From Octopus sinensis (taxonomy: Eukaryota): 64,000 nucleotides of DNA. Position numbers and translations under genes: made by a program. Shown piece by piece: positions 18,650 through 32,774 of the stretch (position 1 is its first letter; every line of letters starts with the position of its first letter). The stretch is from positions 12,958,001 to 13,022,000 of the forward strand of contig NC_043003.1 of NCBI RefSeq assembly GCF_006345805.1, in the 5' to 3' direction. A model generated the notes under the pieces. That model saw only the letters and a list, made by a program, of their open reading frames with translations. It did not search any database and was not told the origin of the DNA.

Positions 18650-18731
18650 CAGATAGACCCCGAAATTTCTTGAGGATATCCTCACTGATTTCTTTAAGTA
18701 CTTCCTTAGCATTGCTGGATTTTGAGCGAAT
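18650..18731 (-). CDS. RECQL: RECQL exon 6
   Basis: IRSKSSNAKEVLKEISEDILKKFRGLS(G); ttgttcag acceptor, GTGAGA donor, 82 nt. Phase 0 to 1 fits both neighbours. Confidence 0.9.
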
Positions 18732-19146
18732 CTGAACAAAATACATAGAAGACAAGAAACTAGAACAAGCCCATGGTTACATCAACTACAGTTTTGCTTT
18801 TTTTTTTGTAAAGAAAGCAAAAAATTCTTCAAATTTTATACCATATTACACAAAAAAAAAAAAAAGAAAAAAACCTTGACATTTCTGAAAAAGTAAAGAT
18901 TTATAGATACATGTATATTGGAGCTGAATAAGAAAGGGATTTTTTTAAAAGTTTGTATCAAAAACGATACGAACAGGCGCAGGAGTGGCTGTGTGGTAAG
19001 TAGCTTGCTAACCAAGCACATGGTTGCGGGTTCAGTCCCACTGCGTGGCATCTTGGGCAAGTGTCTTCTGCTATAGCCCCGGGCCGACCAATGCCTTGTG
19101 AGTGGATTTGGTAGACGGAAACTGAAAGAAGCCTGTCGTATATATG

Positions 19147-19179
<33 letters not shown>

Positions 19180-19796
19180 TTGTGTGTCTGTGTTTGTCCC
19201 CCTAGCATTGCTTGACAACCGATGCTGGTGTGTCTACGTCCCCGCCACTTAGCGGTTCGGCAAAAGAGACCGATAGAATAAGTACTGGGCTTACAAAGAA
19301 TAAGTTCCGGGGTCGATTTGATCGACTAAAGGCGGTGCTCCAGCATGGCCACAGTCAAATAAATGACTGAAACAAGTAAAAGAGTAAAAGAGAGTAAGAG
19401 AGAACATACCTGGGATCATTTGAGTTGTTGATGAAATACTTATAAGGTTTTTACATTTTAACACTTAAAATAATGAGTTCTAACTCTGCAAAGGTGAATT
19501 TAACCTTTCATCTTTCCAAGAACACTACCATTGTACCATACTGAAGGTGTGGCAATTTAATTACATATTATAGCATAAAAGACACATGGGTATATTAGAC
19601 AGCCCCCAGCTCTGACCTCCAATTTCAACAGCATCCATGTATCTACTCTACAGTAAGACACCTATATCTGTCCCTTCTATACCTTAAATCTCTCAACTGA
19701 CACAAAGCTACACCCACTCAATACTATTCCCTAGCCCTCAGATGATGGGCTTTTGTCTTGCAAGGTACTTGGTTACCCTGTCGGTACCAGTCCCAT

Positions 19797-21223
19797 GTGA
19801 AAAGCACTGGTACTGGTACCACATAAAAAGCACTGGTGCTGTTACCACATAAAAGCACTGGTGCTGGTACCACATAAAAGCACTGGTGCTGATACAACAT
19901 AAAAGCACTGGTGCTGGTACCACATAAAAGCACTGGTGCTGGTACCACAAAAAGCACTGGTGCTGGTACCACATAAAAGCACTGGTGTTGGTACCACATA
20001 AAATGCACTGGTGCTGGTACCACATAAAAGCACTGGTGCTGATACCACAAAAAGCACTGGTGCTGGTACCACTTAAAGCACTGGTGCTGATACCACATAA
20101 AAGTACTGGTGCTGGTACCACATAAAAAGCACTGGTGCTGGTACCACATAAAAAGCACTGGTGCTGGTACCTCATAACAGCACTGGTGCTGGTACCACAT
20201 AAAAACCACTGGTGCTGGTACCACATAAAAAGCACTGGTGCTGGTACCTCATAACAGCACTGGTGCTGTTACCACATAAAAACCACTGGTGCTGGTATCA
20301 CATAACAGCACTGGTGCTGGTACCACATAAAAAGCACTGGTGCTGGTATCACATAACAGCACTGGTGCTGGTACCTCATAACAGCACTGGTGCTGGTACC
20401 ACATAAAAAGCACTGGTGCTGGTACCACATAACAGCACTGGTGCTGGCACCACATAAAAGCATTGGTGCTGGTACCACATAACAGCACTGATGCTGGTAT
20501 CACATAACAGCACTGGTGCTGTTACCACATAAAAAGCACTGATGCTGGTACCACATAACAGCACTGATGCTGGTATCACATAACAGCACTAGTGCTGGTA
20601 CCACATAACAGCACTGATGCTGGTATCACATAACAGCACTGGTGCTGTTACCACATAAAAAGCACTGATGCTGGTACCACATAACAGCACTGGTGCTGGT
20701 ATCACATAACAGCACTGGTGCTGGTACCACATAAAAAGCACTGATGCTGGTACCACATAACAGCACTGGTGCTGGTATCACATAACAGCACTGGTGCTGT
20801 TACCACATAAAAAGCACTGATGCTGGTACCACATAACAGCACTGGTGCTGGTATCACATAACAGCACTGGTGCTGTTACCACATAAAAAGCACTGATGCT
20901 GGTACCACATAACAGCACTGGTGCTGGTACCACATAAAAAGCACTGATGCTGGTACCACATAACAGCACTGATGCTGGTATCACATAACAGCACTGGTGC
21001 TGGTACCTCATAACAGCACTGGTGCTGGTACCACATAAAAAGCACTGGTGCTGGTACCACATAAAAAGCACTGGTGCTGGTACCACATAAAAAGCACTGG
21101 TGCTGGTACCACATAAAAAGCACTGGTGCTGGTACCACATAAAAAGCACTGGTGCTGGTACCACATAAAAAGCACTGGTGCTGGTACCACATAAAAAGCA
21201 TTGGTGCTGGTACCACATAAAAG
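19797..21223. repeat. Minisatellite, ~55 copies of a 24-26-bp unit GGTACCACATAAAAAGCACTGGTGCT
   Basis: Directly visible head-to-tail array with variant units (AACAG/AAAAAG, TGATG/TGGTG, GTATC/GTACC). Confidence 0.97.
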
Positions 21224-21358
21224 TCTGTCTCGCCAAATTTCATCTGACCTGTGAAAGCAAAGTGGACATTAAAAACAATGATGGAGATGAGGTTTCACAA
21301 CTAAAGGAATTATGAATTTGCTGAGAGCTGATGATGAGAAGTGTGTGTGTGTGTATGT

Positions 21359-21389
<31 letters not shown>

Positions 21390-22337
21390 CTCATGTGTGA
21401 ATATATAAATGCATGTTTGTATCACCTTGTCTTGGGATCATGTACTAATTGTAAGCAAACCTCCCTGTCATACAAGCAGTGAGTATCACAGTGCAGGTTG
21501 AAGACAGGGAGAGCATCCAGCTTTAGTAAAAACCTTGCCACAACAAGTTTAAAAACGGTGATGATGATGATGTCAATGACGATGACAGTGATGGCAATGT
21601 TTCACAATTTCAGGAATTATCATAAGATTTTCTGAAGGCTGATGGATGGAGAGAACGGTAATCATGACTGCATACACACAAGCACGCATGCCTCTGTGTG
21701 TGGGTGTGTGTGTGTGTGTGGACGGAAGCTTTTACTAAATATATACCAAAGAAGTTCATCAGATTCTTGTTCATAGTCTATATATGTTTAAAAAAAAAAG
21801 CCACCCACTAATGGACTTACAGCACAATATCATTACCCACTTTAATTTCAAGAGGCTTTAGGAAAAAGATGTGACTATCAGATTACTCAGAGGAAGTCAA
21901 GAGTTATTAATCGCAGATACTCTTGGGTTTTAAATAGACTTTCTTAAAATAGAAAGTAAAAAAATAGATTATTCATGATTTAGCAACAATAGGTGCACGT
22001 GTAGTAGTATGGTTAAGAAGCTTGCTGTGGAATCACAGGGTTTTGGGTTCAGTCCCACCGCACGGCACCCAGAGTGAATGTCTTCTATAGGCCCTGACCA
22101 ATCAATGCTGTGTCAATGAATATTGTGGAGGGGAAAATATGTGGAAGTCTATCACATATGTGTGTGTTTGTGTGTGTGTATGTATGTGTGTGTGTGTGGT
22201 GTGTGTGTGTGTGTGTGTGCTTTTGCATGGAAGCCCATCATGTGTGTATGTGTGTGTGTACATATATATATACACACTCACACCAGATATACATATATAT
22301 ATATACACATATATATATACACACACACACACACACG

Positions 22338-22399
<62 letters not shown>

Positions 22400-22472
22400 C
22401 ACTGGAGTAAACACATAAATGTGAAACAAGGTGGAAAAAAGAGTACTCAAATACCAGAGGTAGAGTAATATG

Positions 22473-22709
22473 CTTTATTTAAAAGCAGCAGAAATTTAAC
22501 AAAAGCTATTACTCGGAGTTTCACATTCCTATTCGTCGGACAGTTTTGTTAAAATAGAACCGAGATGACAATACTATCAAGACTAGTATAAACGTTACAC
22601 CTTGATAGAATTGTCATCTCAGTTCTATTTTAACAAAACTGTCTGACGAACGGGAATGTGAAACTCCGAGTAACAGCTTTTGTTAAATTTCTGCTGCTTT
22701 TAAATAAAG
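22473..22709. repeat. Long inverted repeat, 109-bp arms, 19-nt loop
   Basis: 22473-22581 is the near-exact reverse complement of 22601-22709. Confidence 0.92.
22639..22676 (+). ncRNA. Minimal type-I hammerhead ribozyme motif (canonical core)
   Basis: CTGT-CTGACGA-ACG(GGAA)TGT-GAAA-CTC(C)GAG-TA-ACAG. Stems I, II and III all pair; predicted cleavage after GUA at 22672. Confidence 0.7.
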
Positions 22710-23050
22710 TATATACATATACATATGTGTAAATATACATAAAATGTGTGTGTGTGTGTGTGTGTGTGTCTATGTGTGTCTTTGAGTTTGCCACACACAC
22801 CACCACCACCACAGGTTGATGACTGGTGTTGGTTTGTTTACATCCCCATAACTTACCAGTTCAGCAAAACGGACTGATAGAATAAATACCAGTCTTCAAA
22901 AAAAAACAAAGAAAAAAAAAAGGAAACCATATATCCCAGGGTCAATTTGTTCAGCTAAAAACCTTCAAGGCTCCAGATTGGCCACAGTCCAATGAGTGAA
23001 ACAAGCAGAAGATACAAGACAACATACCAAATTACACAGAGCATAATCAC

Positions 23051-23217
23051 CTCATAGAAAAGGTTTGGTCTGTTGAAAGAGGCACGGAATAAAATACATT
23101 CATTTAAGCATAGTATTTTTTTGACATCATTCAACACTTTGACGGTGGCTGTCGCAGTCAAACCTAGAATTGGTACTTCAGGAAACTGTCGTTTCATTAT
23201 TCCAAGAAATTTGTAGT
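23051..23217 (-). CDS. RECQL: RECQL exon 5: motif III (LTATAT)
   Basis: [25 protein letters not shown]...[13 protein letters not shown]; cag acceptor, GTGATT donor, 167 nt. Confidence 0.96.
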
Positions 23218-24587
23218 CTGAAATAAAAAAATAGATAAATAAATAGATAAATGAATAACTATATAAATAAATAAATAAATATGTATGGGGACAGCTGTGT
23301 AGTAAGAAGTTTGCTTCCCAACCACATGGTTCTGGGTTCAGTCCCGCTGCATGGCACCTTGGGCAAGTGTTTTCCCTCAGTAGCTCCAGGGCTCAAACAG
23401 AGCACTGTGAATGGATTCAGTAGATGGAAACTGAAAGAAGCTTGTTGTATTTGTTACCAATTCCTTGGGGGTGAAATTTGGTGGATAGAAACTGCACAGA
23501 AAAAGAAGGGGAGGTTTGGGAGGGAAGAACGGGGTTTGGATGAAGGGAGTGGACGAGTGGGATGGAAGGTGGAGTAGGAAGGAAGGAAGACAGTCAGTGT
23601 TTTCACACCTAACTCAGGGTTCTCAACCATTTTTTTAATCAATGGACCCCTCTTACTTCTTTCTAACTCTGCTCGACCCCCTTTTAGCCAGTTGAAGCTT
23701 TAAAAAGTCTCATATTTTTATAATTAAATATTACTAGAAATTTCATTAAATACATTGTTAAAATATTTCACATATTCTACAAGTATGACTGATTTATTCT
23801 GTCATTTTTCTTTTACTTGTTTCTGTCATTTGACTGCAGCCATGCTGGAGCACTGTCTATTAGTCGAACAAATCGACCCCAGGACTTTTCTTTGTAAGCT
23901 TTGTACTTATTCTATCAGTCTCTTTTGCCAAGCTGCTAAGTTGCAGTGAGACATAAACACATCAACATCAGTTGTCAACCACAGGCACACAAATACATAT
24001 ATATGTATATATATATCATCATCGTCGTCGTTTAACGTCCACTTTCCATGCTAGCATGGGTTGGACGATTTTACTGAGGACTGGCAAGCCAGATGGCTGC
24101 ACCAGTCTCCAATCTGATCTGGCATAGTTTCTACAACTGGATGCCCTTCCTATCACCAACCACTCCGAGAGTGTAGTGGGTGCTTTTACATACCACCGGC
24201 ACGGGGGCCAGTCAGGCGGTACAGGCAATGACCTCGCTCAAATGTTTTTACACGTGCCACCGGCAAAAGTGCCAGTAAGGCGACGCTAGTAACGATCAAG
24301 CTCGAATGGTGTCTTTTACGCGTCACCAGCATGGAAGCCAGTTAGCCGCTCTGGTAACGATCAAGCTCGAATGGTGTCTTTTATGCGTCACCAGCATGGA
24401 AGCCAGTTAGCCGCTCTGGTAACGATCACACTCGGATGGTGCTCTTAGCACCCTACTAGCACAGGGCACAAGTGCCAGTATAAAGACAGTATTGTATCTT
24501 TTAAGGGCAGAGAAAAATAAATAAGAGATGTTGTTGAGAGTAAATCCAGATGACATTTCATTCATGCAGAAAAAAAAACTTTGAGAA

Positions 24588-32225: not shown

Positions 32226-32400
32226 CTGAAAAAGGGGAAAAAAAAAGATTAAGTTATATGAAACGTTGTGTGGTTAGGAAGTTTGTGTTGCAACCACATG
32301 GTTTCCAGTTCAGTCCCACTGCATGCCAGCCTGGGCAAGTATCTGCCACCATAGCCCAAGGTTGAACAATGCTTTGTGAGTGGATTTGGTAGATGGAAAC

Positions 32401-32774
32401 GGCGATGTGTCACGTTCTCACTTTCGCTGGAAACGCCGTCGGAGTTCGCAAAGTGAAAGGCTCCAACGACTCGCAGTCGACTGGGACTCCTCGGTCCGTG
32501 TTTCAAGATGGGTCGGGTAGGTTGCCGATGCTCGTCACTGACCGGCGGCAGCGGGCGGCTTTTCAGGCGGGGTATCCCGCGACTGCAACGCGCGCGCGTC
32601 GCCCTCTTGCGAGGGATGAGTGACGCGTGGCTGCGGTGCGTTTGCGGCTGCGTCGCTCGTGCACGTGAGCACGCACGCGACTCGCTGCGTCGTTCTTGCT
32701 GAGGGCGAGGTGTGTTTGCCCGTCTCCGTCGGTTAGCCGTGCCTGCGCTTTACGTGGAGCGACGGGCCCAGTCG
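32401..32774 (-). pseudogene. 28S rRNA fragment (D2-D3 region) inserted in a SINE within a RECQL intron
   Basis: GC-rich island. 32485-32514 reads GACCCATCTTGAAACACGGACCGAGGAGTC on the minus strand, matching the conserved LSU motif GACCCGTCTTGAAACACGGACCAAGGAGTC, followed by GCGAGTC...GAAAGTGA. Confidence 0.85.

What the first reader, a model, noticed from the sequence alone, without database searches (positions are those of the whole stretch)
22473..22709. Canonical minimal hammerhead ribozyme inside a 109-bp-arm fold-back in a RECQL intron
Seen: on the + strand, 22639-22676 has every hammerhead element in order. These are stem I CTGT/ACAG (extendable to AAAaCTGT/ACAGcTTT), CUGACGA, stem II ACG-GGAA-TGT, GAAA, near-palindromic stem III ACTC-C-GAGT and a GUA site. 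The opposite arm gives a minus-strand copy with a damaged core (CCGACGA), and this is the strand transcribed as RECQL pre-mRNA. Known: minimal type-I hammerheads with tiny self-complementary stem III are typical of Penelope-like elements, cleave mainly as dimers, and such elements often leave inverted termini. Inference: this is a Penelope-like remnant, and the copy in gene-sense orientation may have been inactivated.
Basis: partly seen in the sequence, partly recalled or inferred. Interest (0 to 1): 0.8.

Follow-up and report, generated by a model that had tools for sequence, protein, structure and literature searches.

The report
Penelope remnant with variant U4C hammerhead
This is a short, broken copy of a very common Penelope-type jumping gene lying in a RECQL intron; its hammerhead ribozyme sequence is real but predicted to be locked shut here, and the odd-looking core (CCGA instead of CUGA) is the normal form in its subfamily, so the textbook-looking copy is likely the mutated one.

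Summary
The hammerhead, the fold-back and the RECQL intron are all confirmed. Walking 5' along genomic relatives reaches a single RT + GIY-YIG ORF with Hydra-clade motifs. One near-complete copy has a hammerhead-bearing pLTR on each side. So this is a 308-bp Hydra Penelope-like insertion in (TA)n: a 5'-truncated copy with a 71-nt tail, joined head-to-head to an inverted tail-less copy. In 40 of 42 sampled fold-backs exactly one arm has the tail.

The 'inactivated gene-sense copy' idea fails. CCGACGA (U4C) is the subfamily norm: 871 exact copies against 67 with CTGACGA. That is in the range of three other CpG-decay variants (46, 55, 43), and 8 of 11 other CTGACGA fold-backs keep C4 in the partner arm. 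The 'canonical' arm is likely a CpG back-mutation. Both hammerheads are predicted to be sequestered in the 109-bp hairpin.

The less ordinary result is family-wide: 40 of the first 100 of 5,362 motif matches carry U4C, across several haplotypes, while the youngest, largest subfamily has U4. The ordering old-C4 to young-U4 is favoured, but a root separating them is not rejected (AU p 0.30). No cleavage was tested.

The parts
22402..22603 (-). 5'-truncated 3' end (pLTR) of a Hydra-clade Penelope-like element, with tail; same sense as RECQL
   Evidence: 93% identical over 207 nt to the end of ORF-bearing copy L061 and 86% to L096; the family continues past 22603 in other copies
22402..22472 (-). 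71-nt tail, on this arm only; in a near-complete element it continues through 67 nt of 5' leader to the ATG
22601..22709 (+). inverted, more truncated, tail-less second copy (right arm of the fold-back)
22601..22603 (.). 3-nt microhomology (CTT) shared by the two copies at the head-to-head junction
   Evidence: sequence and alignment ends
22639..22676 (+). type-I minimal hammerhead with U4 (22644 = T, likely a CpG transition from the subfamily's C); predicted cut 22672/22673
22506..22543 (-). type-I minimal hammerhead with the subfamily-typical C4 core (CCGACGA); private transitions at 22531, 22530 (stem II) and 22508 (stem I)
22358..22401 (.). (TA)n target microsatellite, left flank
   Evidence: the same flank is seen at most family ends
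22710..22745 (.). degenerate (TA)n target, right flank
23051..23217 (-). RECQL (RECQ1) exon upstream of the host intron
18650..18731 (-). likely next RECQL exon, closing the host intron (18732-23050)
   Evidence: motif scan and AG/GT signals only

Best explanation
The feature is a 308-bp head-to-head insertion of a Hydra-clade Penelope-like retroelement in a (TA)n tract of a RECQL intron; its two pLTR hammerheads are predicted to be inactive here, and the textbook CUGA arm is likely a CpG back-mutation of the subfamily's CCGA core. Shown: the anatomy, family membership, copy counts and the one-tail rule. Inferred, by analogy with the in vitro Poseidon work (PMC11167929): the RT-endonuclease nicked both strands of the (TA)n. 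It primed two cDNAs at two internal start sites 71 nt apart, 37 and 108 nt downstream of the hammerhead cut. Both stopped early (202 and 109 nt) and were joined at a CTT microhomology. Because both ends run past the cut site, the template was uncut at that hammerhead, which would explain why U4C was tolerated. In the active element the ribozyme would cut 175 nt upstream of the ATG as a dimer or with protein help. At this locus either strand makes the antisense arm first, so the ribozyme would be buried in a 109-bp duplex, and the window holds no same-strand partner.
For: Link to an RT + GIY-YIG ORF. L096 has hammerheads 3,439 nt apart around the ORF. Atlas neighbours (scores 0.94-0.98) include clusters with RVT_1 or GIY-YIG on 21-49% of members. 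Hydra motifs RWK, DKT, CxCX5C, CxxC and CxH are present. Exactly one tailed arm in 40 of 42 fold-backs, binomial p 4e-10. Core counts on the same background: CCGACGA 871, CTGACGA 67, CCAACGA 46, CCGATGA 55, CCGACAA 43; the four variants do not differ significantly, chi-square p 0.085. Partner arm keeps C4 in 8 of 11 CTGACGA fold-backs. Hammerhead stem pair probabilities round to 0 in the fold-back; forcing stem I costs about 66 kcal/mol. No other copy in the window.
Against: 3 of 11 CTGACGA fold-backs have U4 in both arms, so some U4 came from the source RNA or from arm-to-arm conversion. Both window arms share a C-to-T change in stem II (22657 and its mirror), so arm homogenisation or a variant source is possible here too. 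CTGACGA is the largest of the four CpG classes (67 vs 46, p 0.06). Pfam gave no RT or GIY-YIG hit on the family ORF. The unit is about 3.4 kb, whereas Hydra elements are described as generally under 3 kb. No cleavage or RNA data were obtained.
Confidence: 0.85

Rival explanations
1. One reading: an intact hammerhead element inserted, and selection then inactivated the gene-sense copy to protect the RECQL pre-mRNA.
For: The gene-sense copy has CCGACGA plus three private transitions, against one private change in the hammerhead of the other arm.
Against: C4 is the subfamily state. U4 arms are tailed in 5 and tail-less in 3 of 8 discordant fold-backs. The hairpin alone would silence both copies. 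Of the three private changes, two are CpG transitions and all leave Watson-Crick or G-U pairs.
Confidence: 0.05
2. The source RNA belonged to a minor U4 variant of the subfamily, or the arms exchanged sequence, so the minus arm changed T to C rather than the plus arm C to T.
For: 3 of 11 fold-backs have U4 in both arms; both window arms share a stem II C-to-T change.
Against: It needs a T-to-C change back to the exact majority base, against a CpG transition seen at 5-8% per site.
Confidence: 0.08
3. The fold-back has been recruited by the host, as an antisense ribozyme or a regulatory double-stranded RNA for RECQL.
For: A 109-bp intronic duplex 340 nt from a 5' splice site is a plausible editing substrate (inference).
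Against: Same anatomy as 41 other sampled fold-backs. Arm divergence (7 of 112 aligned) is within the subfamily range (100 of 2,043 over 24 fold-backs). No sign of constraint.
Confidence: 0.04

Closest known systems
Hydra-clade Penelope-like elements (Craig et al. 2021, PMC8557442)
   Same: C-terminal endonuclease; RWK, DKT, CxCX5C, CxxC and CxH motifs; (TA)n targets; inverted 5'-truncated copies; tail at one end. The hammerhead has the same CTGT/ACAG stem I and ACTC-N-GAGT-A end as Hydra-2_aMil, and the same ACTC-C-GAGT-A stem III as Hydra-2_aJap.
   Different: All 26 Hydra rows of that paper's HHR table have a CTGA core, whereas several haplotypes here have CCGA. The published octopus family Hydra-1_oBim has a different hammerhead, so this is another family. 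The unit is about 3.4 kb with a 3' UTR of about 1.2 kb. The tail is 71 nt, not the 30-40 nt described for PLEs.
Minimal metazoan PLE hammerheads (Cervera and de la Pena 2014, PMC4209133)
   Same: Type I, palindromic helix III, predicted dimer (helix III duplex -7.8 kcal/mol), opposite-strand pairs, thousands of dispersed copies.
   Different: Stem II is only 2-3 bp with a GNRA loop. In the parts read (parts 1-2 of 4 and a supplement search) the core variant reported is U3-A8, not U4C.
Poseidon element of Anolis (Frangieh et al. 2024, PMC11167929)
   Same: Two internal reverse-transcription starts define the optional tail; both strands are cleaved and extended; hammerhead mutants still insert in vitro.
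   Different: Different clade. There the hammerhead overlaps the start codon; here the cut is 175 nt upstream of the ATG.
Natural U4C viroid hammerhead (cited in Perreault et al. 2011, PMC3088659)
   Same: The same core change, said there to lower activity considerably in vitro yet allow viroid infectivity.
   Different: Here it is in a genomic retroelement, carried by at least 1,564 exact copies of two haplotypes.

Membership tests
Penelope-like elements (EN+) | single ORF with RT and GIY-YIG endonuclease | tested here: met
   About 710-aa ORF in relatives, YRDD motif, one frameshift in L096. Atlas neighbours carry RVT_1 or GIY-YIG. Pfam scan itself negative.
Penelope-like elements (EN+) | pLTR partial tandem with a hammerhead on each side of the ORF | tested here: met
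   L096, hammerheads 3,439 nt apart
Penelope-like elements (EN+) | 5' truncation, inverted 5' copy, tail at one end | tested here: met
   Variable truncation; 40 of 42 fold-backs with one tail
Hydra clade | RWK and DKT motifs | tested here: met
   RLRWKAFF and SDKTRNLY in L096
Hydra clade | CxCX5C linker, with CxxC and CxH near the C-terminus | tested here: met
   CNCKNENSC, CKLC and CRH
Hydra clade | absence of the internal CCHH motif in the endonuclease | tested here: inconclusive
   None seen by eye in the alignment; not aligned to a CCHH-bearing reference
Hydra clade | (TA)n insertion preference | tested here: met
   Flanks
Hydra clade | RT phylogeny within Hydra | not tested
   No reference clade set was loaded as usable sequence
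Hydra clade | canonical CUGANGA hammerhead | tested here: inconclusive
   Met in the youngest subfamily (about 77 of the first 100 of 3,160); not met in this copy's subfamily (CCGA)
Hammerhead ribozyme, type I | core nucleotides and helices I-III in order | tested here: met
   Plus arm by descriptor; minus arm met except U4C; Rfam models do not detect either
Hammerhead ribozyme, type I | self-cleavage after A17 | not testable with these tools
   Needs an in vitro assay; folding predicts sequestration at this locus
Non-LTR retrozyme (non-autonomous tandem array) | short head-to-tail tandem monomers without an ORF | tested here: not met
   Head-to-head pair, and the family is continuous with an ORF; one 349-bp tandem pair was seen at L022/L028

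The most novel reading that the evidence does not exclude
A Penelope lineage propagated for several successive subfamilies (roughly 2,000 copies with intact stems) on a weakened U4C hammerhead while the other core and stem positions stayed fixed, then reverted to U4 at the start of its youngest and largest burst. This would be a natural loss-and-recovery series showing that ribozyme activity tunes, but is not required for, Penelope mobility. CUGA-based descriptors would miss the C4 copies.
Probability: 0.4. Interest if true: 0.55.

Novelty: new variant of a known kind. Interest (0 to 1): 0.3.

Why it matters
The locus itself is an ordinary decayed transposon fragment. The family is a useful natural experiment on an open question, what hammerheads do for Penelope-like elements. 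It offers U4 and C4 haplotypes of one lineage, each amplified hundreds to thousands of times, whose cleavage rates can be compared directly. The 40-of-42 one-tail rule supports the two-start-site, two-strand insertion model in a second clade. It also warns that a 'canonical' ribozyme in one repeat copy can be the mutated one.

Tried and rejected
Rfam: no hammerhead match at gathering over the window or at E up to 10 locally (only hairpin-driven miRNA models below threshold), and none on a canonical relative.

Pfam: 0 families on 5 family ORF pieces.

Neptune clade: my first guess from the endonuclease, rejected because the motifs fit Hydra. Identity with Hydra-1_oBim: rejected because the hammerhead differs (the consensus was seen only in part).

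Sequencing runs: only contigs were available. The family is abundant in three coded organisms and present in a fourth run guessed to be RNA. No piece spans the whole locus; one 118-nt contig in X1 spans the junction with 2 differences, but no base at 22644 or cut site could be read, so this says nothing on expression or cleavage.

Monophyly of the C4 subfamilies could not be rejected (AU p 0.30). Excess overall conservation of the hammerhead was not seen: 5 diagnostic columns in 38 nt against 2 in the 71-nt tail. The sense versus antisense intronic comparison could not be run without annotation.

Earlier scan findings: none returned. Lunse et al. 2017 was not held, so its variant list was not seen; one of two supplement files of PMC4209133 was not searched. 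Either could already list U4C in PLE hammerheads.

Full report
Observation. The plus strand 22639-22676 reads as a complete type-I minimal hammerhead. It was the only exact-core descriptor hit in the window, with none in 30 of 30 shuffles. The arms 22473-22581 and 22601-22709 are 109 nt with 6 mismatches and fold at z -28. The minus arm has CCGACGA. Flanking minus-strand exons match RECQ1 best, and the repeat lies about 340 nt into the intron after exon 23217-23051. Rfam does not detect the ribozyme. The host looks like a cephalopod from its repeat content; that label is recalled and was not tested.

What it belongs to. A search of G000 with 22401-22712 gave 3,080 candidates, of which 40 were scored. 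Copies share the 3' end and are cut at varying 5' points. Following the longer ones through about 1.2 kb of 3' UTR reaches an ORF 56% identical over 91% of the query to a 713-aa database protein. L096 holds the whole ORF with one frameshift between two hammerheads 3,439 nt apart. The upstream one continues through the 71-nt tail and 67 nt of leader to the ATG; the downstream one is tail-less and ends in (TA)n. Pfam found nothing, but Atlas neighbours include clusters with RVT_1 or GIY-YIG on 21-49% of members. The motifs RWK, DKT, CxCX5C, CxxC and CxH, and the (TA)n target, are those given for the Hydra clade (PMC8557442, section 11; supplement parts 1, 2 and 52 read). The published octopus Hydra family has another hammerhead, so this is a different family.

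Anatomy of the insertion. The window copy is a minus-strand 202-nt piece with tail (22603-22402) joined head-to-head at a shared CTT to a plus-strand 109-nt piece without tail, between TA-rich flanks. I examined 87 loci taken from exact-pattern lists (three overlapping duplicates dropped) plus the window; 87 of these 88 yielded a copy. They contained 42 divergent pairs within 700 nt: 40 had one tailed arm, 2 had none, none had two. This fits the two internal start sites and two-strand priming shown in vitro for an Anolis Poseidon element (PMC11167929, parts 1-2 of 4 read). Applying that model here is inference. Both ends lie 37 and 108 nt beyond the hammerhead cut, so the copied RNA was uncut there.

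Which core is the changed one. On one fixed 32-nt background the whole-genome exact counts are CCGACGA 871, CTGACGA 67, CCAACGA 46, CCGATGA 55 and CCGACAA 43. The four variants are the transitions of two CpG sites and do not differ significantly (p 0.085). G5A and G8A hit conserved core positions, so genomic copies appear to decay without selection. Of 20 CTGACGA loci fetched (of 67), 11 were fold-backs: the partner kept C4 in 8 and had U4 in 3.

Subfamilies. A looser pattern that keeps the stems found 5,362 matches. By my count of the first 100 listed (all on one contig), 40 have C4 and 60 have U4, 54 of the latter being one haplotype (A: CTGATGA, loop GCAA, A at 11.1). Haplotype B (CCGATGA, GCAA, G) has 693 exact copies among 3,160 A/B-type matches. 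Arm-to-arm divergence is 28 of 1,004 for A, 29 of 761 for B and 100 of 2,043 for the window's group D. Divergence from the column majority is 1.0, 3.1 and 7.3%, and D is heterogeneous and includes deliberately chosen U4 copies. Protein trees of the C-terminal 281 columns join A and B against D (100/99 on 16 copies; a 24-copy mixture tree agrees with weaker support; two short rows were dropped there). Holding B and D together is not rejected (p-AU 0.30). Of five hammerhead positions that differ between subfamilies, four are tolerant ones (N7, the N of the GNRA loop, 11.1, loop III) and one is U4 (Fisher p 3e-4). The classes were assigned after seeing the data, and the samples were chosen by pattern.

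How it likely works. In the active element the hammerhead would cut 175 nt upstream of the ATG, as a dimer through the palindromic helix III (duplex -7.8 kcal/mol; the monomer fold scores +0.4) or with protein help. Reported in vitro activity of such motifs is low (PMC4209133, parts 1-2 of 4; review passages PMC6765202). U4C is described as considerably lowering activity in vitro while allowing viroid infectivity (PMC3088659, passages and section 8). At this locus each strand transcribes the antisense arm first; stem pair probabilities round to 0 and forcing stem I costs about 66 kcal/mol. The window has no other copy to pair with. The ribozyme is predicted to be silent without any need for selection.

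Novelty. PLE hammerheads, Hydra elements in octopus, inverted truncated copies and tails are published. I did not find a U4C core in PLE hammerheads in seven library searches, in the 26 Hydra rows of the PMC8557442 table, or in the one searchable supplement of PMC4209133. A bioRxiv retrozyme paper was seen in passages only, and Lunse et al. 2017 was not seen. Verdict: a real but ordinary remnant, in a family with a modestly interesting core variant; interest 0.3.

Noticed in passing
G000 fold-backs L104-L193 and window 22402-22709: Strict one-tail rule: 40 of 42 head-to-head pairs have exactly one tailed arm and none has two. Two more distant divergent pairs (L105/L106, 4 kb; L125/L126, 1.9 kb) follow it too.
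   Followed up: yes
G000-wide: The youngest subfamily has a canonical U4 core with only a 2-bp stem II, a GCAA loop and an A-A mismatch at 10.1/11.1; several copies have long open ORF parts (L095, L103).
   Followed up: partly
window 22630-22686 and family copies: Stem I extends past a 1-nt bulge into an 8-9 bp A/U-rich helix, with wobble changes between subfamilies.
   Followed up: partly
window 22473-22709: The 109-bp intronic duplex in RECQL pre-mRNA would be a candidate A-to-I editing substrate (inference).
   Followed up: no
window about 19720-21240: Long tandem array of a 25/26-bp unit.
   Followed up: no
window about 32250-32750, minus strand: A stretch recalled as resembling large-subunit rRNA; Rfam gave no match at E up to 0.001.
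   Followed up: partly
window 7095-28397, minus strand: Several RECQL exons spread over more than 20 kb of repeat-rich introns.
   Followed up: partly
window 22014-22085 and 23303-23374: Two 75%-identical short repeats that look like tRNA-derived SINE heads (label recalled).
   Followed up: no
L061:4748-7678 minus; L103:5116-6150 plus; L062:2378-4647: A 977-aa open frame with a LINE-like RT, a 345-aa transposase-like frame (both labels recalled) and a tandem array with a unit of about 395 bp, next to family copies.
   Followed up: no
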